In this document: positions 1,572 to 9,272 of the stretch, in pieces
How the letters are laid out: each line of letters begins with the position of its first letter
Position numbering within the stretch: the first letter of the stretch is position 1
DNA from: a virus
Taxonomy: Duplodnaviria; Heunggongvirae; Uroviricota; Caudoviricetes
Length of the DNA: 9,272 nucleotides
Direction: 5' to 3' (one strand)
Virus record (IMG/VR): IMGVR_UViG_2695420685_000020
Position numbers and translations under genes: made by a program
The notes under the pieces: model-generated
What the model was told of the DNA's origin: nothing
Databases searched by the model: none
The model's input: only the letters and a program-made list of their open reading frames with translations

Positions 1572-1656
1572 GCCGAAGTGGCGAAATCGGTAGACGCAGT
1601 TGATTCAAAATCAACCGTAGAAATACGTGCCGGTTCGAGTCCGGCCTTCGGCACCA
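1572..1656 (+). tRNA. leuX: tRNA-Leu (anticodon CAA), 85 nt with long variable arm and encoded CCA
   Basis: GCCGAAGTGGCGAAATCGGTAGACGCAGTTGATTCAAAATCAACCGTAGAAATACGTGCCGGTTCGAGTCCGGCCTTCGGCACCA: acceptor stem GCCGAAG/CTTCGGC, anticodon loop TTCAAAA (CAA), T-arm GGTTCGAGTCC. Confidence 0.92.
1637..1656. other. Probable attL core region (3' end of leuX) of the integrated P4-like element; exact core boundaries not determinable
   Basis: Inference only: P4-family integrases integrate into the 3' end of tRNA genes and an integrase gene starts about 150 bp downstream. The matching attR copy would lie beyond the window. Confidence 0.3.
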
Positions 1657-1768
1657 TTATTACTTCCAAGTCCATCCGAGTAAGTCCGATTATCCATTAA
1701 AAATCAATACTTTCAGCGATTTCTACGATCCTGGATCGTCCGAGGTTGTCCGTTGAAATCCGGATGTC

Positions 1769-1791
1769 ATTGGGGGCATAATTGGGGGCAT
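1769..1791 (+). repeat. Tandem 11-bp direct repeat ATTGGGGGCAT x2 (1769-1779 and 1781-1791) just upstream of int
   Basis: Seen directly: cATTGGGGGCATaATTGGGGGCATc. Function unknown; position between the attachment region and the int start suggests an integrase arm-type or regulatory site. Confidence 0.5.
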
Positions 1792-1808
1792 CTTAACTTC
1801 GATTAGAA

Positions 1809-3095
1809 ATGTGCCCCCAAATGAAGCTCAATGCTAGACAAGTCGAGACAGCAAAGCCAAAAGACAAAAGCTACAAAATGGCCGATGGCGGCGGTTTGTA
1901 TCTCGAGGTTTCGGCCAAGGGGTCTAAATACTGGCGCATGAAATACCGACGCCCCTCTGACAAAAAAGAGGATCGCCTCGCTTTTGGTGTTTGGCCGACC
2001 GTGACGCTTGCTGAAGCTAGAAAGAGGAGGGATGAAGCGAAAAAGTTGCTGGCGCAAGGTATAGATCCAAAAGCAGTACAGAAAGAGGCTCAAGCAGAGA
2101 ATGCTGGTGCTTATAATTTTGAAACTATTGCTCGTGAATGGCACGCCAGCAACAAACGTTGGAGTGAGGATCATCGGGCGCGTGTTCTTCGCTATCTAGA
2201 GCTGTATATCTTTCCTTATATTGGCTTGTCTGATATCCGACAGCTTAAAACTAGCCATCTTTTAGCACCGATAAAAAAAGTTGATGCCAGTGGTAAGCAT
2301 GATGTGGCGCAGCGTCTTCAGCAACGTGTTACTGCTATTATGCGCTATGCCGTACAGAACGATTATATAGATTCAAATCCTGCAAGTGATATGGCTGGTG
2401 CGTTATCGACAGCTAAAACGCGGCACTATCCAGCTCTACCATCACATCGTTTTCCTGAGTTCTTAGCACGTCTTGCTGCATATCGTGGTCGTATGATGAC
2501 GAAAATTGCGGTTGAACTTTCTTTATTAACATTTGTTCGTTCCAGTGAGCTACGTTTCGCTCGCTGGGATGAATTCGACTTCGATAAATCTCTATGGCGT
2601 ATACCTGCAAAACGCGAGGAAATTAAAGGCGTACGTTACTCATATAGAGGAATGAAGATGAAGGAAGAGCATCTCGTTCCACTTAGTAGGCAAGCGATAG
2701 GGTTGTTGGAGCAGTTAAAGCAGATTAGTGGTGATAAGACGCTGCTTTTCCCTGGGGATCATGACGCAACTAAGGTTATGAGTGAGAACACTGTTAATAA
2801 TGCATTGCGTGCGATGGGCTATGATACGAAAACAGAAGTTTGCGGACATGGTTTTAGGACAATGGCACGTGGTGCGTTAGGAGAGTCAGGATTATGGAGT
2901 GATGATGCTATTGAACGCCAATTGAGCCATTCGGAACGTAATAATGTGCGAGCTGCGTATATTCATACGTCTGAGCATTTAGATGAGCGCAGACTAATGG
3001 TCCAATGGTGGGCAGATTATCTTTATTCCAACAGAGAGAAGCATATCTCTGCTTTTGAATTTGCAAATAAACTTAATAAAAATAGCCTTGATTAA
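1809..3095 (+). CDS. int: P4-family tyrosine integrase (site-specific recombinase), 428 aa (alternative ATG start at 1821)
   Basis: ORF track 1809-3095. N-terminal arm-binding-type region (AKPKDKSYKMADGGGLYLEV), C-terminal catalytic region with HGFRTMARGAL (H-x-x-R) and RAAYIH (catalytic Tyr). Located directly downstream of a tRNA gene. Confidence 0.9.
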   Translation: MCPQMKLNARQVETAKPKDKSYKMADGGGLYLEVSAKGSKYWRMKYRRPSDKKEDRLAFGVWPTVTLAEARKRRDEAKKLLAQGIDPKAVQKEAQAENAGAYNFETIAREWHASNKRWSEDHRARVLRYLELYIFPYIGLSDIRQLKTSHLLAPIKKVDASGKHDVAQRLQQRVTAIMRYAVQNDYIDSNPASDMAGALSTAKTRHYPALPSHRFPEFLARLAAYRGRMMTKIAVELSLLTFVRSSELRFARWDEFDFDKSLWRIPAKREEIKGVRYSYRGMKMKEEHLVPLSRQAIGLLEQLKQISGDKTLLFPGDHDATKVMSENTVNNALRAMGYDTKTEVCGHGFRTMARGALGESGLWSDDAIERQLSHSERNNVRAAYIHTSEHLDERRLMVQWWADYLYSNREKHISAFEFANKLNKNSLD

Positions 3096-3172
3096 GTCTC
3101 CGCTTAGTTTGAACTAGCCTTCATCAACAGCAATGCTTGTGTCTTTTTAACCTTCACTTAACACCTTCTTAG

Positions 3173-3213
3173 GCAATTATTCCATTGCTTTTAAAAACTA
3201 AGTATTCCTTAGT
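3173..3213. promoter_or_regulatory. Two palindromic operator candidates (C-boxes) upstream of the controller gene: GCAAT-N6-ATTGC (3173-3188) and CTAAG-N5-CTTAG (3198-3212)
   Basis: Seen directly: GCAATtattccATTGC and aCTAAGtattcCTTAGt. Both carry a TATTCC centre and sit 50-90 bp upstream of the C-gene ATG at 3263. From memory, CTAAG-N5-CTTAG is the reported C.EcoO109I binding site. Confidence 0.55.
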
Positions 3214-3262
3214 AATTTCGAGTGTAAAAAGTGCAAACCTACCTCCAAAAAGAGGATTTTCG

Positions 3263-3568
3263 ATGCTTCCAATTAGGTTAAAAAAAGCCCGATTGAATGC
3301 TGGGTTAACTCAAGAACAGCTGGGAATACTTGTTGGCATTGATGAATGCTCTGCCAGTGCTCGCATGAATCAATATGAGAAAGGTAAACATATGCCCGAT
3401 TTTTCACTTACTAAAAAAATCGCTGATTTATTAAATGTCCCTGTCTCATATTTTTACACACCCGAAGATGACTTGGCAGAAATTATTTTGTTGATTAATA
3501 AACTAGACAAAAAACAGCGGTTAATTTTATTAAAAAATTTATCAGATGGATTTATAAGTCATGAATAA
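3263..3568 (+). CDS. Controller (C) protein of an R-M system, XRE-family helix-turn-helix regulator, 101 aa
   Basis: ORF track 3185-3568 begins at a TTG; the internal ATG at 3263 has an AGAGGA Shine-Dalgarno 6 nt upstream (3251-3256). HTH segment LTQEQLGILVGIDECSASARMNQYEKGK. Stop overlaps the start of the next ORF, and palindromic operators lie upstream. Confidence 0.8.
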   Translation: MLPIRLKKARLNAGLTQEQLGILVGIDECSASARMNQYEKGKHMPDFSLTKKIADLLNVPVSYFYTPEDDLAEIILLINKLDKKQRLILLKNLSDGFISHE

Positions 3569-4379
3569 GCAAGAAGTTATACTTAAAGTGCAGGAGTGTG
3601 CTGCGTGGTGGATTTTGGAGAGACAAAGTAAACTAACAAAGTTAATGTCAGAAACAATGTCCATAAATCCGTTTATGACCCCTTTTATTTTTGATTATCA
3701 TTCCCTTAATGATTTTGATGAACTAGTTGAAGCAATAATTGCTAAGCATTTAATGACTGGGCATGATACTGGCTTTGGAAAATTGATTGATGAAAAAATA
3801 CTTCCTAGAGTGTTTGGTGCATATAAATTAGATAAAAGTTATAGAGCTGCCAACGAGCCTTTTATACACCCTTGCTTTGATGAAATAGATCATGTAATAC
3901 AAAGGGATGATGGTAGAATTGAGCTTTTATCTCTTAAGGCAGGGAAATGGACTATTCAATTGACGATGGCTGTCCAACTAAATAAAGCATTTCACGAAAT
4001 CATAAATAATTATCCTGGAGTGGCTGACAATATAGTGGTTGGGGTTTTTTATGGAAATAGCCATGGATTAACTGATAAGTATAGAATCTTACGAGGTATC
4101 AATACTGGTGCAAACCACAATGTGATTGATATTCGTGACAAAGTGCATGTATATGCTGGTAAAGAATTTTGGTCATGGCTTAACAATGGTGAGGCTGAAA
4201 CCCAGCATTGGGTACTTGAAGGTATAGAACGTGCTGTAAAAGAAGCAGATATAAAAGAAAAAAATAAAGATCTTATTGAAAAATTCAAAGAACATGTTGC
4301 AAAGAAGTACAATGAGCAAGTTCTAAATGCTGATGGCACAGCTCAATGGCACAAATTACTTGAAATGATTAATGAATAA
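3561..4379 (+). CDS. Type II restriction endonuclease candidate, 272 aa (possibly EcoO109I-type)
   Basis: ORF track 3561-4379. ATG overlaps the C-gene stop by 8 nt (ATGAATAA). Lies between a C-protein gene and a convergent m5C methyltransferase gene. Contains a plausible PD-(D/E)xK-like segment (FDEIDHV...IELLSLK). Length agrees with my recollection of R.EcoO109I (272 aa). No direct homology check was possible. Confidence 0.7.
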   Translation: MNKQEVILKVQECAAWWILERQSKLTKLMSETMSINPFMTPFIFDYHSLNDFDELVEAIIAKHLMTGHDTGFGKLIDEKILPRVFGAYKLDKSYRAANEPFIHPCFDEIDHVIQRDDGRIELLSLKAGKWTIQLTMAVQLNKAFHEIINNYPGVADNIVVGVFYGNSHGLTDKYRILRGINTGANHNVIDIRDKVHVYAGKEFWSWLNNGEAETQHWVLEGIERAVKEADIKEKNKDLIEKFKEHVAKKYNEQVLNADGTAQWHKLLEMINE

Positions 4380-4407
4380 AAAACTGGCCTAAGGGCCAGT
4401 TTTTTTT
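4378..4407. terminator. Bidirectional intrinsic terminator between the convergent R and M genes
   Basis: AAAAACTGGCC-taag-GGCCAGTTTTTTTT: 7-bp GC-rich stem (4383-4389 / 4394-4400), 4-nt loop, A-tract on the left and T-tract on the right, located in the 38-bp gap between the two stop codons. Confidence 0.65.
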
Positions 4408-4417
4408 ATGACTAATT

Positions 4418-5671
4418 CTAAACTTCTTCTTCAAGGTCGTAGTAAGAAACATCTCCACTATATGCTTGACCATTTTTAAAGAAAGATCTGGTTCTAATAT
4501 GCGGTCTAATATGGGTTTCTATATAATCTGGAGTTACTAAATCAGCAACCTTATTTTCTTGTATACGATGAAGAAGTTCCATAGCAGCTTCCCCTGCAAC
4601 TTTACCTAACCGGACAGGAACTGCGTTACCTATCTGTCTGAATTTTTCTGTAGTTGTACCTTCAAATTTCCAGTAATCAGGAAACTCTTGTATCGCGGCA
4701 GCTTCACCAACAGAAATAGCTCTAAGTTCAGTTGGGTGGCACATACTTGTTCCCGCATGATTTGGCATTGTTACTACTGTGGGTGAAGGAAACTGGAAAG
4801 ATAGTTTCCTCCAGTAAGCACTTCTTCCTCCTTTAAGATACCAGCTTTTTCCCATAGATTCTTTTTGCATTTCTTCTGGCATGCTTCTCCAGTTTCCGCC
4901 AGGTGGAACCATTGAAAGATATTTCAGTTTTCTTGGCGAAAAATTCATGACTTCTGGATATTTATCAACAAAACCGCTCTCTGGGCCAATTACATCCCCC
5001 AGCGTTTTGAATGGCGGAAGATTATCTTCTACTCTATTGCTGAATAAAGGGGAGGCGAAATTGGCTATCATTCCGAAGCGATTACCAATTAAAATAACAC
5101 GCTCCCTAATTTGTGGGGCTCCATAGTTGGCAGCATTAACTACAAAGCAATCCACATGATAACCTAGTTTATTGAATTCGTTAGCTACCCTTTTTATTAG
5201 AGAGCCTTTTTCGAAAGCAGATGCTGCGATTGTGCCTGATAGCTCCTTCTTTTTAGAAGCTGGAACTATAGACATTGATAATAAACCGCGTACGTTTTCC
5301 ATTACGAAAACTTTTGGGTTTAATTCTTTAATCATTCGAACATATTCGAAAATAAGCTGCCCTCTGGCATCTTCTAGCCCTAACCTATTTCCAAAAACAC
5401 TAAATGCTTGGCACGGTGGACCGCCAGCAACTAAATCTATTTCTTCTTTATCATTCACTCCGGCTAGTGCTAATAATTCAGAGCCAGTGCAGTCAACAAT
5501 ACTACCTTCGAATACAGCAAGATTTGGCTTATTAGTTTTAATTGTTTTTAGAGCTGCCTTATCTTGTTCAACGCAAGCTACGAGCTCAAAGCCAGCCTCT
5601 TCGAGACCTAAGTCTAACCCCATTGCGCCACTAAATAGCGAAATAAACTTTTTACTAGACAAAATAATCAC
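4418..5671 (-). CDS. DNA (cytosine-5) methyltransferase, Type II modification enzyme, about 414-417 aa (start codon uncertain: GTG at 5671 or TTG at 5662)
   Basis: ORF track 4418-5671 minus. Canonical m5C-MTase motifs: I FSGAMGLDLG, IV GGPPCQAFS, VI ENVRGL, VIII QIRERV, X GNAVPV. No ATG at the N-terminus; AGGTGA lies upstream of the TTG at 5662. Confidence 0.9.
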   Translation of the reverse strand: MIILSSKKFISLFSGAMGLDLGLEEAGFELVACVEQDKAALKTIKTNKPNLAVFEGSIVDCTGSELLALAGVNDKEEIDLVAGGPPCQAFSVFGNRLGLEDARGQLIFEYVRMIKELNPKVFVMENVRGLLSMSIVPASKKKELSGTIAASAFEKGSLIKRVANEFNKLGYHVDCFVVNAANYGAPQIRERVILIGNRFGMIANFASPLFSNRVEDNLPPFKTLGDVIGPESGFVDKYPEVMNFSPRKLKYLSMVPPGGNWRSMPEEMQKESMGKSWYLKGGRSAYWRKLSFQFPSPTVVTMPNHAGTSMCHPTELRAISVGEAAAIQEFPDYWKFEGTTTEKFRQIGNAVPVRLGKVAGEAAMELLHRIQENKVADLVTPDYIETHIRPHIRTRSFFKNGQAYSGDVSYYDLEEEV

Positions 5672-5804
5672 CTACATACTTAGCAGCCAAATACTAGGAT
5701 ATTGTAAAGGATTAACACTAATCCTCAACTCAAGTTTCAGGGATCTTAGCAGAATCTGCTTTGCAAGGATTCTATGAATGTAAATTAATAGATACTGGCG
5801 CGCA

Positions 5805-5823
5805 GTGCTTTCCCCGCCTCGCC
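5805..5823. other. cos site: 19-nt cohesive-end sequence of P2/P4-type phages (reverse complement of GGCGAGGCGGGGAAAGCAC)
   Basis: Exact 19/19 match at 5805-5823 (GTGCTTTCCCCGCCTCGCC) to the P2/186/P4 cohesive-end sequence as I recall it, located immediately downstream of psu where P4 carries cos. Confidence 0.7.
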
Positions 5824-5923
5824 CGCCCGCTTTGTGGGATGGTTTTAATGCAGTTGCGCTGACACGCTCAGGCCACGCCGGGCGTGGCGCGATCTGCAGA
5901 AAATGAGGCAGGAAAACGCATGC

Positions 5924-5956
5924 AAAGCCATGCACCTTATCGATGCATGGCTTTTT
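5924..5956 (+). terminator. Stem-loop with 3' T-run (AAAGCCATGCA-ccttatcga-TGCATGGCTTTTT); possible terminator or cos-region structure
   Basis: 11-bp perfect inverted repeat, 9-nt loop, followed by TT. Sits between cos and the psu stop. Function and strand uncertain. Confidence 0.3.
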
Positions 5957-5987
5957 CCAGTAAAAACGGGCGGATTTTCGGGGAATT

Positions 5988-6560
5988 TTACACAGACTGA
6001 CGTGATGCCAGTTGCGCACTTTTACGCGAAAAAATCATGTTCTGCGCAGGGGTGAATTTTTCACGGCTGTCATCCACCGAAGCCGCGTCAGGCCTGAATC
6101 CGATGGTCGTAAAAATGTCGCTATCCTGTGCGGAATAATTAATTTTTTCCCCCTTCGCAAGCCAGGAAAGAAGGGCTTCACGCAGGGCATCTGTGGCACG
6201 CTGTATGGCACAGTTTCGGGCAATGGCCGTCAGCTCACTGTAGCCCATCAGCTCCGGTGCCAGTGCCGCCGCCAGTGCTGTGCCGTGCTGCTGCATAAAA
6301 TCATTCAGCCGGTCGCGGATGCTGATGTGCTGAACGGCTTCATGCGAACGAATATAACGACCGGCGGTCTGATTCACCTGCCATTTTCTGACTTCGATAA
6401 TATTGCGTAATTCGTCAAGGCGACTGACGTTTCTGCCTTCTCCTGACAGAAGCCGCAGATATTCCTGTTCGGCCGCTGCCAGCTCATTTTTGCGTTGCAG
6501 CCATGCTGCTTTGTTATTCTGGCAGACCTCAAAAGCCTGCTGTAATGACATTGTGGTCAC
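5988..6560 (-). CDS. psu: Psu (polarity suppression / Rho-antagonist capsid decoration protein) of P4-type satellites, 190 aa with GTG start (alternative ATG at 6551)
   Basis: ORF track 5988-6560 minus. N-terminus xTTMSLQQAFEVCQNNKAAWLQRKNELAAAEQEYLRL closely resembles P4 Psu as I recall it (same 190-aa length). AGGAGA Shine-Dalgarno 7 nt upstream of the GTG. Confidence 0.88.
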   Translation of the reverse strand: MTTMSLQQAFEVCQNNKAAWLQRKNELAAAEQEYLRLLSGEGRNVSRLDELRNIIEVRKWQVNQTAGRYIRSHEAVQHISIRDRLNDFMQQHGTALAAALAPELMGYSELTAIARNCAIQRATDALREALLSWLAKGEKINYSAQDSDIFTTIGFRPDAASVDDSREKFTPAQNMIFSRKSAQLASRQSV

Positions 6561-6574
6561 ACCCCGTCTCCTGA

Positions 6575-6820
6575 TTAATGGTTGAATGGTGAGCTGTAAC
6601 AGCCTTTAACTTTTCGGACAACAGCCGGTGCTGTGCTTGCCGGTGCTGGTTTTTCCTCCGTGACCGGAGAACGAATCACGGCACAAATTGACTCATGCGT
6701 TTTAAATGTCGCCGAACAGTAAATATTCTGGCACTGCAGATAACTTTCTTTGACATTGTCACTCACATACCGGCTGGTGCGGGTATGCGCTGAATGACGA
6801 CAGAAAGGGCAGCGCATCAT
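6575..6820 (-). CDS. Ogr/Delta-family zinc-finger late-gene transcriptional activator, 81 aa, single domain
   Basis: ORF track 6575-6877; true start likely ATG at 6820 (MMRCPFCRHSAHTRTSRY...), overlapping the sid stop as ATGA. Cys4 pattern CPFC...CQNIYC as in P2 Ogr (MFHCPLCQHAAHARTSRY...). Confidence 0.85.
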   Translation of the reverse strand: MMRCPFCRHSAHTRTSRYVSDNVKESYLQCQNIYCSATFKTHESICAVIRSPVTEEKPAPASTAPAVVRKVKGCYSSPFNH

Positions 6821-7551
6821 GACAGCAGTCCTCTGGCCTTCAGCTCTGCTCCCTGCTGGTCCATTTTGTCCTGCCACACCTTGCGCTGTGCCGGTGTGCC
6901 TGCCACCTCATAATCCATGTGCGGGAGTGTTGCCGCTGACAGTCCGGCCAGCCGGAGAACCGGCTCACCGCTGAGGCTGATTTGCATCTGTTTAATTTTC
7001 TGCTCCAGCGATGATTTCACCTGCTGCATGACAGCCCTTTCCGGTGCGACGTAACCCTGATGGCCGGTGGTGTTGGCGAGCGGATTTTCCTGTACCAGAA
7101 TGCTCAGATGCATTGCCCGGACAAGCGCCTCACAGGTTTCATTCAGGGCGTGTTCCAGCTCATGCTCTGCATACAGACTCAGAAGGTGATGATGTGCCTT
7201 CCGGTAGGCGGTGGCCGTGCTGTCACACGCCCCTTTCAGGCGTTCGCGTTCAAAATTCAGCACCACGGCCAGATTGTCATATTCCTGTACCAGCTCCCGG
7301 CGTGCCACGCGCTCAATGTGGCGCTGTTTCAGCTCGTCGCTCAGGACACCACCGGCTGCACGAAAGGCCGTGCGCCAGTCGTCAGCGTCGTTTCCGTCGG
7401 CTTGCGCCAGCGCATTTTTTTCCTGCTCTGCCCGTTCAATGGCCGTGACGGTCTCATCCATCAGGCGGGCGTTCTCAAGATGAGCGACTCTGGCCTTTTC
7501 CAGTTGTGCCAGCGCGGGTTGCAGATATTCAGGGATGGTGTTGTCAGACAT
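6817..7551 (-). CDS. sid: Sid (capsid size determination, external scaffold) protein of P4-type satellites, 244 aa
   Basis: ORF track 6817-7569. ATG at 7551 (MSDNTIPEYLQPALAQLEKAR...) has a GAGGA Shine-Dalgarno 8 nt upstream and gives 244 aa, the length I recall for P4 Sid. Gene order sid-delta-psu matches P4. Confidence 0.85.
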   Translation of the reverse strand: MSDNTIPEYLQPALAQLEKARVAHLENARLMDETVTAIERAEQEKNALAQADGNDADDWRTAFRAAGGVLSDELKQRHIERVARRELVQEYDNLAVVLNFERERLKGACDSTATAYRKAHHHLLSLYAEHELEHALNETCEALVRAMHLSILVQENPLANTTGHQGYVAPERAVMQQVKSSLEQKIKQMQISLSGEPVLRLAGLSAATLPHMDYEVAGTPAQRKVWQDKMDQQGAELKARGLLS

Positions 7552-7623
7552 TTTCCGGCTCCTCGTCACTTCAGGTTAAGAAAATTGTGACGTACACCGG
7601 ACAACAACACGACGCATTGCAGA

Positions 7624-7641
7624 TGTGCCAGCCCTGACACA
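7624..7641. promoter_or_regulatory. Delta/Ogr-type activator dyad TGT-N12-ACA upstream of sid (candidate Psid activator site)
   Basis: TGTgccagccctgacACA at 7624-7641. Centre is about 80 bp upstream of the sid ATG, compatible with an activator site centred near -55 and a 20-30 nt leader. A second dyad, TGTgacgtacaccggACA, lies at 7586-7603. Confidence 0.45.
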
Positions 7642-7720
7642 GGAGACTCATCCTCAGACCGGCAAGCCAGGAAAAGGTCGCAGGAAAAACCGGCTTACTG
7701 TTTGTTTTTTTATATTTTAC

Positions 7721-7824
7721 TGTTCACCTCTGTTCACCTTAATAAAAAAGATAAGTAATACAGTAAATTAAATGGTGAACAATCGCAGTAATGACTGTTC
7801 ACCGTCTGTTCACCACTGTTCACC
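7721..7824. repeat. Iteron cluster of the octamer TGTTCACC (crr-like cis replication region / alpha primase binding sites)
   Basis: Direct copies at 7721-7728, 7731-7738, 7796-7803, 7807-7814, 7817-7824 and one inverted copy GGTGAACA at 7774-7781. TGTTCACC is the type I iteron of P4 ori/crr as I recall it. Located between sid and vis. Confidence 0.65.
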
Positions 7825-7982
7825 CGTTCATGGACTTTTTGTGCTGTTTATTACTTTTTATTTTTATTAATTAACTGAAATAAATAAGAAAAAACAATTT
7901 GTATTTCACTATAATTTTTTCCAGCTCCTTCCAGAGCGTTTTAAAGCCATCTGGCGCTGATGTACAAAAAATACACAGCCAT

Positions 7983-8000
7983 TGTAAGACTGCCGGAACA
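7983..8000. promoter_or_regulatory. Delta/Ogr-type dyad TGT-N12-ACA upstream of vis (candidate late-left promoter activator site)
   Basis: TGTaagactgccggaACA at 7983-8000, about 110 bp upstream of the vis ATG. Confidence 0.4.
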
Positions 8001-8102
8001 AATCCCCCCTGTTGCGTCTGCCGAAAATATTCACAAAATAAAGCGCTACCCGAAGCCGGACGGACTTATCCGGTGCTGTATGGACATTAACGAGGTAGCC
8101 CG

Positions 8103-8369
8103 ATGCAAGCTGTTTTTTCTTCCCCGTCTCCCGCCCCTGTGACGCCACTGATGCCGCTGCCGGACATCACACAGGAGCGTTTTCTACGTCTTCCGGAAGT
8201 GATGCACCTGTGCGGCCTGTCACGCTCGACCATCTACGAACTCATCCGTAAGGGGGAATTTCCGCCGCAGGTGAGTCTTGGCGGTAAAAATGTGGCCTGG
8301 CTGCACTCTGAAGTCACCGCATGGATGGCCGGGCGCATTGCCGGACGCAAACGGGGGTACGACGCATGA
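8103..8369 (+). CDS. vis: Vis/AlpA-family small DNA-binding regulator (P4 Vis-like), 88 aa
   Basis: ORF track 8103-8369. ATG with GAGGT 7 nt upstream. AlpA-type HTH segment [45 protein letters not shown]. Length equals P4 orf88 (vis) as I recall it. Confidence 0.8.
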
Positions 8370-8404
8370 TGATGCCCGCTCTGCAAAAACTCCCTTTTTC
8401 TGGC

Positions 8405-8434
8405 TTGCCTTTTTCCGGCATTTGCGGATATAGT
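8405..8434 (+). promoter_or_regulatory. Candidate sigma70 promoter (TTGCCT-N18-TATAGT) for the immunity/left operon (PLE-like)
   Basis: -35 TTGCCT at 8405-8410 and -10 TATAGT at 8429-8434, just downstream of vis and upstream of the complementary-box leader. Confidence 0.35.
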
Positions 8435-8465
8435 TTTTCCGCTGCCGCAAAATCGGCAGCCGGGC

Positions 8466-8757
8466 GTGAGAACCCGAGCAATTCACAGGCGACATATGAC
8501 GCGCCACGCGTCTTTTTTTGTGTCGCAATCAATGCCACAGAGCGCCAGATTATGGTGTGGTGTGTGGTCAGTCGTGCAGATGGCATTCCGTGCATCCTGC
8601 CCGCGTCCGCTCATTATGCCGCAGAGTCAATGGTAGCTCAGGCGGGGCAGCCTCCGGGCTGGCCGGTATCCTGTGAAGCCGGTATTCTCACCCCCGTCTG
8701 GGCTATCGCCATCGAGCGTGAGAACTCCGGCGATAGCGTTATTTGCTATTCACAGGA
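8466..8757 (+). ncRNA. Immunity-type leader with CI/c4-like antisense boxes: box A 8466-8489, complementary box B 8669-8691, box C 8718-8757 (overlaps the RBS of the downstream small ORF); RNA boundaries unknown
   Basis: GTGAGAA...TTCACAGG occurs at 8466-8489 and at 8718-8757. Its reverse complement CCTGTGAA...TTCTCAC occurs between them at 8670-8691. Box C ends in AGGAGG, the Shine-Dalgarno of the ORF starting at 8768. Confidence 0.35.
8498..8519 (+). terminator. Intrinsic terminator: GACGCG-cca-CGCGTC followed by T7
   Basis: 6-bp GC stem at 8498-8503 / 8507-8512 with T-run at 8513-8519, about 60-80 nt downstream of the candidate promoter. Confidence 0.5.
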
Positions 8758-8767
8758 GGCTGCCATC

Positions 8768-8965
8768 ATGGCTACAACCCTTACCCCCTCACACCCTGAA
8801 TTTGTCTTTGTGTTTGCGGCTGTCCGTCGCGCAGACCGTCATCCCCGTATCTGTATGCTTCGCACCGTCGCCGGTGATGAACGCAGTGCCCGCCGTTCCC
8901 TTGTCCGTGACTATGTGCTCTCCCTTGCTGCCCGTCTGCCGGTGGTGGAGGTGTCCCGTGCGTAA
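8768..8965 (+). CDS. Small Icd/Kil-like protein (65 aa), first gene after the immunity leader
   Basis: ATG at 8768 with AGGAGG 8 nt upstream ([65 protein letters not shown]). It is the C-terminal part of track ORF 8321-8965, whose upstream portion is the non-coding leader. Family assignment is by position and recollection of P4-like annotations only. Confidence 0.55.
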
Positions 8966-9245
8966 TAAAAAAGCCCCTCAGACCGTCTCAGCACGTCATG
9001 ACGCCCGTGAACACCTCAGCATTGAGGCTTACCATAAGCTCAACCGCGCCAGCGCCGTATCCCAGTTTGTTGGGGGTGATTTGATTCACCGTGAACTCTC
9101 CGGCCTGCATCAGCTCTACATTCCGCATATTTTCAGTTACCTGAATGAAGATATTGATTTTGTGCTGAATGAACTGAAAGCCAAAGGCCTGTGCCGCGAT
9201 TTTCTCGCCCAGCAGAAAGACCGGGGAGACAGGACGCATGTTTGA
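8958..9245 (+). CDS. Hypothetical protein (95 aa) with GTG start overlapping the preceding stop (GTGCGTAA)
   Basis: Open frame to TGA at 9243-9245 with no in-frame ATG. GTG at 8958 is preceded by GGAGGT (8947-8952) at 5-nt spacing. Corresponds to the 3' part of track ORF 8673-9245. Confidence 0.45.
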
Positions 9246-9272
9246 TTTTCCCCAGCCCGGTGAGATTTACCG
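9238..9272 (+). CDS. 5' end of a further ORF ([11 protein letters not shown]...), partial, continues past the right edge
   Basis: ATG at 9238 overlaps the preceding TGA (ATGTTTGA), with GGGGAGA/AGGA upstream. Only 11 codons are visible. Confidence 0.25.
   Translation, partial: MFDFPQPGEIY

What the first reader, a model, noticed from the sequence alone, without database searches (positions are those of the whole stretch)
3173..5671. Controller-regulated Type II R-M system carried as cargo in the int-to-cos hotspot of a P4-like satellite
Between the integrase gene and cos/psu, where P4 itself carries non-essential genes, sits a compact C-R-M module: an XRE-type controller gene with upstream palindromic operators, an overlapping 272-aa endonuclease candidate, and a convergent m5C methyltransferase sharing a bidirectional terminator. 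The module is visibly A+T-rich compared with the satellite backbone and the chromosome (not computed), indicating horizontal acquisition. This is a defence system travelling on a phage-helper-mobilisable element. From memory, the EcoO109I system (RGGNCCY) was described in exactly this kind of P4-like context, so this is probably that system or a close relative rather than a new one.
Basis: partly seen in the sequence, partly recalled or inferred. Interest (0 to 1): 0.8.

Follow-up and report, generated by a model that had tools for sequence, protein, structure and literature searches.

The report
EcoO109I restriction-modification system on P4-like satellite

Summary
The 272-aa ORF (3561-4379) is 100% identical over its full length to crystallised R.EcoO109I (PDB 1WTD/1WTE). 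The 101-aa HTH protein (3263-3568) is the exact sequence UniProt holds as Q9RPJ4 (labelled 'Eco0109IREP'). It overlaps the R gene by 8 nt and is preceded by the published CTAAG-N5-CTTAG C-box (3198-3212). The convergent 417-aa ORF (4418-5671) is an m5C methyltransferase. A strong A6/T8-flanked hairpin (4378-4407) lies between the two stop codons. The module has 37% G+C, against 53-54% in the flanks. It fills the variable int-to-cos region of a P4-like satellite: attL core in leuX at 1637-1656, int, the exact 19-nt P2/P4 cos at 5805-5823, then psu, delta and sid. The published attribution of EcoO109I to this location is to Kita et al. 1999 (not held; cited by Rousset et al. 2022, who list it among known systems in the P4 psu-int hotspot). 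The same module (>=99% identity) is in 69 of 5,426 complete E. coli genomes, always chromosomal. Novelty: already known. Minor extras are a mosaic backbone with a short single-domain delta, an int allele linked to the cargo, and a DraII-producer plasmid homologue.

The parts
1572..1656 (+). leuX tRNA-Leu(CAA). Its 3' end (1637-1656) is identical to the 20-bp P4 attP core, so this is attL of the integrated satellite.
   Evidence: ARAGORN. Rfam tRNA. Exact match of the reverse complement of P4 4078-4097 at 1637-1656. K-12 synteny idnK-ahr-leuX-intB.
1809..3095 (+). P4-type tyrosine integrase (428 aa from this ATG; annotated as 424 aa in relatives).
   Evidence: Pfam Arm-DNA-bind_3, Phage_int_M and Phage_integrase. 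91% aa identity to P4 Int. 83% DNA identity to P4 up to window 3020.
3158..3172 (.). Candidate distal C-box (TTAAC-N5-CTTAG), 25 bp upstream of the proximal one.
   Evidence: 2-mismatch match, not significant alone. The position fits the statement in PMC3115060 that the EcoO109I sites have 7 bp more spacer than the 18 bp of Csp231I. Inferred.
3198..3212 (.). Proximal C-box / C.EcoO109I operator CTAAG-TATTC-CTTAG (extended palindrome ACTAAG..CTTAGT, 3197-3213).
   Evidence: Exact match, the only one in the window. Corresponds to motif 8, 'ACTAAGGA-T-TnCTTAGT', quoted for C.EcoO109I/C.Csp231I.
3263..3568 (+). ecoO109IC, controller protein, 101 aa, XRE-type HTH.
   Evidence: Pfam HTH_19/HTH_3. 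PADLOC Control_protein over 101/101 positions, 228.8 bits. Exact sequence named 'Eco0109IREP', Q9RPJ4.
3561..4379 (+). ecoO109IR, Type IIP restriction endonuclease (RG^GNCCY), 272 aa. Overlaps the C gene by 8 nt.
   Evidence: 100% identity over 272/272 residues to PDB 1WTD/1WTE, E = 1.9e-187. Pfam RE_EcoO109I. Exact sequence Q9RPJ3. PADLOC REase_II, 653.7 bits.
4378..4407 (.). Bidirectional intrinsic-terminator-like hairpin A6-CTGGCC-TAAG-GGCCAG-T8 between the convergent R and M genes.
   Evidence: Sequence. RNA folds of -17.5 and -17.0 kcal/mol, z = -4.6 and -5.5. Function inferred.
4418..5671 (-). ecoO109IM, C5-cytosine DNA methyltransferase, 417 aa from GTG 5671. An alternative TTG at 5662 lies behind an AGGTGA Shine-Dalgarno-like sequence.
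   Evidence: Pfam PF00145, E = 7e-65. TIGR00675 dcm. PADLOC MTase_II. Same protein annotated in all carriers.
5701..5728 (-). Candidate sigma-70 promoter of the M gene (TTGAGG-16-TACAAT), enclosing a 7-nt inverted repeat AGGATTA-N4-TAATCCT (5708-5725).
   Evidence: Consensus scan (the number of sites is not above chance). Inverted repeat. Inferred only.
5805..5823 (-). cos: the 19-nt P2/P4 cohesive-end sequence GGCGAGGCGGGGAAAGCAC. It marks the right-hand boundary of the variable cargo region (about 3021-5796).
   Evidence: Exact match, 0 expected. Identical to P4 positions 1-19, and P4 homology resumes here.
5988..6560 (-). psu (polarity suppression / capsid decoration), 190 aa.
   Evidence: Pfam Psu, E = 1e-87. 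96.7% DNA identity to P4.
6575..6877 (-). delta-like Ogr-type zinc-finger activator, single-domain form. The probable start is the ATG at 6820 (about 81 aa).
   Evidence: Pfam Ogr_Delta. 51% identity to the N-terminal half of P4 Delta. Identical DNA in other P4-like elements.
6817..7569 (-). sid (capsid size determination), 250 aa ORF (244 aa in P4).
   Evidence: 95.5% DNA identity to the P4 sid region. No Pfam hit.

Best explanation
The region is the EcoO109I Type II restriction-modification system, made of three genes: ecoO109IC, ecoO109IR and ecoO109IM. It occupies the variable, non-essential segment between int and cos of a P4-like satellite prophage integrated at leuX.

Mechanism:
- M.EcoO109I, a C5-cytosine methyltransferase, is transcribed from its own promoter on the minus strand. 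It protects host and satellite RGGNCCY sites.
- The C and R genes form one operon with an 8-nt overlap. Its transcription depends on C.EcoO109I binding the CTAAG-N5-CTTAG C-box upstream of its own gene.
- R therefore appears only after C has accumulated, by which time the DNA is already methylated. This makes it safe to establish the system when the satellite enters a new cell.
- The R.EcoO109I homodimer then cleaves unmethylated RG^GNCCY sites in incoming phage or plasmid DNA.
- A shared hairpin terminates both convergent transcripts.

Because the module lies inside the att-to-att, cos-containing satellite genome, and is about the same size as P4's own gop-beta-cII segment, it can be packaged into P2-type helper capsids and spread horizontally.

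Shown here: the identity of C and R, the gene order, the overlap, the C-box, the hairpin, the G+C contrast, the att/cos/backbone context and the distribution.

Taken from the literature, not tested here: the recognition sequence, the dependence of R production on C, and C binding and bending of the operator.

Inferred: the M promoter, terminator function, and anti-phage benefit in the native satellite context.
For: - R is 100% identical to crystallised EcoO109IR over 272/272 residues.
- The exact C and R sequences are UniProt Q9RPJ4 and Q9RPJ3, labelled Eco0109IREP and EcoO109IR.
- PADLOC Control_protein, REase_II and MTase_II give full-length hits. Pfam gives RE_EcoO109I, DNA_methylase and HTH_3.
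- The C-box CTAAG-N5-CTTAG is exact at 3198-3212 and matches the published motif 8.
- PMC4824078 reports that inactivating the C gene abolishes REase production in EcoO109I.
- The hairpin folds with z = -4.6 and -5.5.
- G+C is 0.37 against 0.53-0.54 in the flanks.
- The attP core is at 1637-1656, cos at 5805-5823, and P4 homology lies on both sides of the cargo.
- Rousset et al. 2022 list 'the type-II RM system EcoO109I (Kita et al., 1999)' among known systems in the P4 psu-int hotspot.
- The module is >=99% identical in 69 of 5,426 complete E. coli genomes, in the same context, with a full-length alpha primase gene further on.
- Both coding differences from the O157 copy are synonymous.
Against: Nothing contradicts it. 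The limits are these:
- No REBASE was available, so M is assigned by position and family. The three source names shown for the exact M sequence do not include 'M.EcoO109I'.
- The primary papers (Kita 1999, Kita 2002, Hashimoto 2005) are not held in the library. They are cited second-hand or from memory.
- The window stops before alpha and attR, so the mobilisability of this particular copy is unverified.
- Promoter-like sites in the region are no more frequent than in shuffles.
Confidence: 0.96

Rival explanations
1. The module acts mainly as a selfish addiction (post-segregational killing) cassette. It stabilises the P4-like prophage in the chromosome rather than serving as anti-phage defence: cells that lose the element would be cut by residual R as methylation is diluted.
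For: This is general knowledge of Type II R-M systems (the Kobayashi model). From memory, the abstract of Kita 1999 spoke of 'horizontal transfer and stable maintenance'. The module is nearly invariant (>=99%) in all 69 carriers and always sits at the same locus. The int allele is co-inherited with it.
Against: This is not exclusive with defence, since both follow from the same biochemistry. RGGNCCY sites are scarce in E. coli DNA: 7 in 50 kb of K-12 against 33 expected. That would weaken killing but not abolish it. Rousset et al. treat the hotspot cargo as antiviral. No test was done here.
Confidence: 0.3
2. The copy in this window is a silent or decayed remnant in a defective, no longer mobilisable satellite. 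On this reading the genes are intact by sequence but are not expressed or not transferable.
For: The window ends at 9272, before epsilon/alpha and attR. From memory, the type strain H709c has sid disrupted by IS21, and one carrier here (ESDR8, H31) has IS21 genes within the matched stretch. Another carrier has IS1 in int (H83). The delta gene is the short single-domain form.
Against: C, R and M are full-length and identical to the functional proteins, and the C-box and hairpin are intact. Within the window, int, cos, psu, delta, sid, alpA and the CI/C4 RNA region are all intact. The short delta is a common variant found in 159 genomes, not a lesion.
Confidence: 0.1
3. An orphan methyltransferase next to an unrelated ORF, with no functional R-M pair.
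For: None found.
Against: The 272-aa ORF is the crystallised endonuclease itself.
Confidence: 0.01

Closest known systems
EcoO109I R-M system of E. coli H709c (Kita et al. 1999 J Bacteriol 181:6822; Kita et al. 2002 NAR 30:3558; structure PDB 1WTD/1WTE)
   Same: The R protein is identical. The C protein is identical to Q9RPJ4. The gene order is the same (C then R, with M convergent), as is the C-box motif. The location between int and psu of a P4-like prophage is also the same, at leuX (the leuX site for H709c is from memory).
   Different: From memory, H709c has IS21 inserted in sid. Here sid is an uninterrupted 250-aa ORF. The backbone also carries a short single-domain delta instead of the 166-aa P4-type delta seen in the 69 carriers among complete genomes.
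P4 psu-int defence hotspot (Rousset et al. 2022, PMC9122126; also PMC13586616, 2026)
   Same: The cargo lies directly next to cos, between int and psu. It is A+T-rich and matches the size of the P4 gop-beta-cII segment: 2,776 bp at 36.6% G+C against 2,687 bp at 35.1%. EcoO109I is explicitly listed as one of the known systems there.
   Different: Nothing substantive. The left homology break lies inside the 3' end of int, about 70 nt before the stop. I did not find this detail stated in the passages I read.
Csp231I C-R-M system (C.Csp231I; PMC3115060, PMC4824078)
   Same: The C proteins are about 70% identical. They share the CTAAG-N5-CTTAG C-box class, the larger ~11 kDa C protein and the convergent R and M genes.
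   Different: Csp231I recognises AAGCTT, and its C and R genes do not overlap and have separate promoters, with R expression independent of C. In EcoO109I the C and R genes overlap by 8 nt and R production is reported to depend on C.
Probable DraII system on Deinococcus radiophilus plasmid NZ_CP086386.1
   Same: It encodes the only R.EcoO109I homologue in PLSDB: 41.5% aa identity over 99% of the protein. An adjacent region is 69% identical in DNA to the M gene, apparently convergent with it. D. radiophilus is the source of DraII, the RGGNCCY prototype (from memory).
   Different: A distant host phylum, plasmid-borne, with no detected C-gene match and only 41% identity. I have not shown that this plasmid locus is DraII.

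Membership tests
EcoO109I R-M system (specific system) | Endonuclease with the R.EcoO109I sequence | tested here: met
   272/272 residues identical to PDB 1WTD/1WTE chain 'EcoO109IR'. Exact sequence is UniProt Q9RPJ3.
EcoO109I R-M system (specific system) | Controller protein C.EcoO109I encoded immediately upstream of R | tested here: met
   The exact 101-aa sequence is Q9RPJ4, 'Eco0109IREP'. It overlaps R by 8 nt.
EcoO109I R-M system (specific system) | Cognate m5C methyltransferase adjacent to R | tested here: met
   PF00145 at E = 7e-65, convergent and 38 bp from the R stop. Identity with the REBASE M.EcoO109I entry was not checked directly because REBASE was not available.
EcoO109I R-M system (specific system) | Cleavage and methylation specificity RG^GNCCY | not testable with these tools
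   This follows from sequence identity of R to the characterised enzyme. It needs a digestion and protection assay.
C-protein-controlled Type II R-M (C.EcoO109I class, motif 8) | Palindromic C-box CTAAG-N5-CTTAG upstream of the C gene | tested here: met
   Exact match at 3198-3212, 51 bp upstream of the ATG, with 0.2 matches expected at <=1 mismatch. The motif is as quoted in PMC4824078.
C-protein-controlled Type II R-M (C.EcoO109I class, motif 8) | Second dimer-binding site separated by an extended spacer | tested here: inconclusive
   TTAAC-N5-CTTAG at 3158-3172, 25 bp upstream, fits the '7 bp more than the 18 bp of Csp231I' statement. A 2-mismatch match is not above chance, however (3 observed against 3.25 expected).
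C-protein-controlled Type II R-M (C.EcoO109I class, motif 8) | R expression depends on C | not testable with these tools
   Reported for EcoO109I by Kita 2002, as summarised in PMC4824078.
P4-like phage satellite | Core genes int, psu, delta, sid, alpA, ash/epsilon region and alpha | tested here: inconclusive
   int, psu, delta, sid and alpA are present and intact in the window, as are the CI/C4 immunity RNA elements. alpha lies beyond the window end. It is present and full-length in two related carriers.
P4-like phage satellite | P2/P4 cos site | tested here: met
   Exact 19-nt GGCGAGGCGGGGAAAGCAC at 5805-5823, identical to the left end of P4.
P4-like phage satellite | Integration at a tRNA gene with the P4 att core | tested here: met
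   The 20-bp P4 attP core is exact at 1637-1656, the 3' end of tRNA-Leu(CAA). attR lies outside the window.
P4 psu-int defence hotspot cargo | Variable segment bounded by int and cos, unrelated to the P4 gop-beta-cII segment | tested here: met
   P4 homology stops at window 3020 and resumes at cos. Other E. coli genomes match int at only 80-90% and lose homology at about 3020-3026.

The most novel reading that the evidence does not exclude
The most novel reading not excluded is about the backbone rather than the module. This window carries a recombinant in which the EcoO109I cargo, together with its linked low-G+C int allele, has been moved onto a different P4-like backbone with a short, single-domain delta. 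The left recombination breakpoint would lie inside the 3' end of int. This would be a concrete example of int-plus-cargo travelling as a unit. None of the 69 carriers among complete genomes has this backbone. Cargo swapping at this hotspot is already described in general terms, so even if true this is a small increment.
Probability: 0.5. Interest if true: 0.15.

Novelty: already known. Interest (0 to 1): 0.1.

Why it matters
It matters little as a discovery. By the citations available here, the system, its controller, its crystal structure and its residence in a P4-like prophage were published between 1999 and 2005. The P4 int-psu locus was formally described as a defence hotspot in 2022, with EcoO109I named as an example. 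The value of this result is as a positive control for the scan: a tool-free reader correctly recognised a C-R-M module, its satellite context and even its identity. The locus remains a clean textbook case of a defence system carried on a helper-dependent satellite.

Tried and rejected
1. Restriction-site avoidance. RGGNCCY has 0 sites in the window against 5.7 expected. This looked like possible self-avoidance, but the motif is depleted about fivefold in a 50-kb K-12 stretch that lacks the system (7 against 33), and P4 itself has none in 11.6 kb. At the K-12 rate, about 1.3 sites are expected in the window. I rejected it as a special feature.

2. Suspected frameshift in R. RefSeq annotates R as 244 aa in O157 and TUM9757. 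Alignment shows only three SNPs plus a 1-nt difference in the terminator T-run (4400) between the window and O157. Both coding SNPs are synonymous. The 244-aa call is therefore a start-codon choice by the annotation pipeline, not a lesion.

3. Primary papers. I tried to read Kita 1999, Kita 2002 and their PMC copies. None is held. I relied on secondary citations.

4. Terminator scan. The consensus scan did not report the R/M hairpin. Direct folding showed it clearly.

5. Plasmid or phage origin of the cargo. No plasmid in PLSDB and no phage record carries the module. There are only weak hits, plus the D. radiophilus homologue.

6. C-box half-sites upstream of M. The CTAAG pentamers near 5680 and 5745 have no partner half-site, so I did not treat them as operators.
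Full report
**1. What is in the window**

ORF listing, Pfam, ARAGORN and comparison with K-12 give this layout:

| Feature | Coordinates | Strand |
|---|---|---|
| 3' end of idnK | 135-353 | + |
| ahr | 357-1418 | - |
| leuX tRNA-Leu(CAA) | 1572-1656 | + |
| P4-type integrase | 1809-3095 | + |
| three-gene module | 3158-5730 | both |
| P2/P4 cos | 5805-5823 | - |
| psu | 5988-6560 | - |
| Ogr/Delta-type gene | 6575-6877 | - |
| sid | 6817-7569 | - |
| alpA/vis-type gene | 8103-8369 | + |

- The last 20 nt of the tRNA (1637-1656) are identical to the annotated P4 attP core, so this is attL.
- P4 DNA aligns to window 1633-3020 at 83% (int), 5824-6545 at 96.7% (right end of P4 to psu) and 6698-9272 at 95.5%.
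- The 19-nt cohesive-end sequence that begins the P4 record is present exactly once, at 5805-5823.
- The region between about 3021 and 5796 has no counterpart in P4. It replaces P4's gop-beta-cII segment. The two are almost the same size and composition: 2,776 bp at 36.6% G+C here, 2,687 bp at 35.1% in P4.

**2. Check of the observation**

- *Controller gene.* It most plausibly starts at the ATG at 3263, with AAGAGGA 6 nt upstream, and ends at 3568. The product is a 101-aa HTH protein.
- *Operators.* An exact CTAAG-N5-CTTAG palindrome lies at 3198-3212 and is the only one in the window. A degenerate copy, TTAAC-N5-CTTAG, lies 25 bp upstream at 3158-3172. That position fits published remarks on the EcoO109I operator spacing, but the match is not statistically significant on its own.
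- *Endonuclease candidate.* The 272-aa ORF starts at 3561, 8 nt before the C stop codon.
- *Methyltransferase.* The 417-aa ORF on the minus strand (4418-5671) is a C5-cytosine methyltransferase (PF00145, E = 7e-65; TIGR00675).
- *Terminator.* Between the two stop codons lies A6-CTGGCC-TAAG-GGCCAG-T8 (4378-4407). It folds strongly on both transcripts: -17.5 and -17.0 kcal/mol, z = -4.6 and -5.5.

**3. Identity**

- The 272-aa protein is identical at all 272 positions to the chain 'EcoO109IR' of PDB 1WTD/1WTE.
- The exact C and R sequences are in the large protein collection under the UniProt names 'Eco0109IREP' (Q9RPJ4) and 'EcoO109IR' (Q9RPJ3).
- PADLOC's REBASE-derived models hit end to end: Control_protein 101/101 positions, REase_II 272/272 positions.
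- The M protein is the one found next to C and R in all carriers.

This is therefore EcoO109I itself, not a relative of it.

**4. How it works**

From the literature available here:
- C proteins of the C.EcoO109I class bind the CTAAG-N5-CTTAG type C-box, motif 8.
- For EcoO109I specifically, inactivating the C gene abolishes endonuclease production (PMC4824078 summarising Kita 2002).

Together with the 8-nt C/R overlap seen here, the standard model applies. M is made constitutively from its own promoter. A candidate is TTGAGG-16-TACAAT at 5728-5701 on the minus strand, but this is only a consensus match. C accumulates slowly and then switches on the CR operon, so that R appears after the genome has been methylated. 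The recognition sequence RG^GNCCY and the crystal structure are established knowledge. I did not test them.

**5. Context in the literature**

Rousset et al. 2022 (PMC9122126) describe the P4 locus between psu and int, next to cos, as a hotspot with more than 300 gene arrangements. They name 'the type-II RM system EcoO109I (Kita et al., 1999)' among the known systems found there. A 2026 study (PMC13586616) confirms that the int to psu-delta-sid hotspot is the main defence locus of P4-like elements.

**6. Distribution**

- The module (3100-5800) occurs at >=99% identity in 69 of 5,426 complete E. coli genomes. There is one copy per genome, never on a plasmid, and many of the listed carriers are O157:H7.
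- Compared with O157 FRIK944 it differs by three SNPs and one T in the terminator run. Both coding SNPs are synonymous.
- RefSeq's 244-aa annotation of R is a start-site choice, not a truncation.
- In FRIK944 and TUM9757 the element continues through an Icd-like gene, a DUF5375 gene and a full-length primase-helicase (alpha). The elements of this lineage therefore look complete. The window itself ends before alpha and attR.

**7. Side observations**

(a) *Short delta.* The delta gene here is a single-domain Ogr-sized form, 51% identical to the N-terminal half of P4 Delta. Identical DNA exists in 159 genomes, for example O145:H28 RM12761. None of the 69 EcoO109I carriers has it: they cover 93-96% of the window. 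The window's backbone is therefore mosaic.

(b) *Int allele linked to the cargo.* The 3' part of this int allele is >=99% identical only in the 69 carriers. All other genomes match at 80-90% and lose homology at window 3020-3026, about 70 nt before the int stop. The int allele and the cargo are linked, and the left edge of the variable region lies inside int.

(c) *Cognate sites.* RGGNCCY is absent from the window, but this reflects an E. coli-wide depletion.

(d) *Immunity RNAs.* Rfam finds C4 antisense RNA (8626-8713), isrK (8441-8518) and c4-a1b1 (8428-8480), which is the P4 immunity RNA region.

(e) *DraII-producer homologue.* The only plasmid in PLSDB that encodes an R.EcoO109I homologue is a 10.3-kb plasmid of Deinococcus radiophilus. 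The R match is 41.5% aa identity over 99% of the protein, and the adjacent M-like DNA is 69% identical. That organism is the source of DraII, the RGGNCCY prototype (from memory), so this is probably the DraII system.

**8. Verdict**

The novelty class is 'already known'. Interest is low (0.1). The finding is a good positive control for the first-stage reader rather than a discovery.

Noticed in passing
window 6546-6877 (delta region): The delta gene is a short single-domain Ogr-type form (about 81-100 aa), only 51% identical to the N-terminal half of the 166-aa P4 Delta. Identical DNA is present in 159 of 5,426 genomes, for example O145:H28 RM12761. None of the 69 EcoO109I carriers in the complete-genome set has it, so this window combines the EcoO109I cargo with a different backbone variant.
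   Followed up: partly
window 2600-3095 (3' part of int): This int allele (G+C 0.446; 83% DNA but 91% protein identity to P4 int) is >=99% identical only in the 69 EcoO109I carriers. All other E. coli genomes match at 80-90% and lose homology at about 3020-3026, roughly 70 nt before the int stop. The left boundary of the variable hotspot therefore lies inside int, and the int allele is linked to the cargo.
   Followed up: partly
whole window; L003 (P4); L004 (K-12 4470000-4519999): There are no RGGNCCY (EcoO109I) sites in the 9.3-kb window (5.7 expected from shuffles) and none in the 11.6 kb of P4. The motif is about fivefold depleted in K-12 DNA that lacks the system (7 observed against 33 expected in 50 kb), so this is a species-wide bias, not local avoidance.
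   Followed up: yes
window 8428-8713: Rfam gathering-score hits to c4-a1b1 (8428-8480), isrK (8441-8518) and C4 antisense RNA (8626-8713), all on the + strand. This is the RNA-based immunity region of P4-like elements (CI RNA and its targets). It overlaps mechanically listed ORFs that are probably not genes.
   Followed up: no
plasmid NZ_CP086386.1 (Deinococcus radiophilus, 10,303 bp), positions about 445-2041: This is the only PLSDB plasmid with a homologue of R.EcoO109I (41.5% aa identity over 99% of the protein; annotated 'PmeII family type II restriction endonuclease'). Next to it is DNA 69% identical to the M gene, apparently convergent. D. radiophilus produces DraII, which has the same RGGNCCY specificity (from memory), so this is probably the DraII R-M locus.
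   Followed up: partly
window 5701-5728 (minus strand), inverted repeat 5708-5725: The candidate M-gene promoter TTGAGG-16-TACAAT contains a perfect 7-nt inverted repeat, AGGATTA-N4-TAATCCT, between its hexamers. This could be an operator for M expression or a chance palindrome in A+T-rich DNA.
   Followed up: no
carriers NZ_CM169472.1 (ESDR8, H31) and NZ_CP075632.1 (2018-166, H27/H83): Some carriers have insertion sequences inside the satellite. ESDR8 has IS21-family istA/istB within the matched stretch, reminiscent of the IS21 in sid that I recall for the type strain H709c. Strain 2018-166 has IS1 splitting int.
   Followed up: no
L001 23757-26700 (O157:H7 FRIK944, downstream of the satellite): Just beyond the P4-like element at leuX, the O157 chromosome carries further defence genes: a phosphorothioated-DNA-binding restriction endonuclease and type II Zorya zorE/zorB2. 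The leuX locus is thus a composite defence island in that lineage.
   Followed up: no
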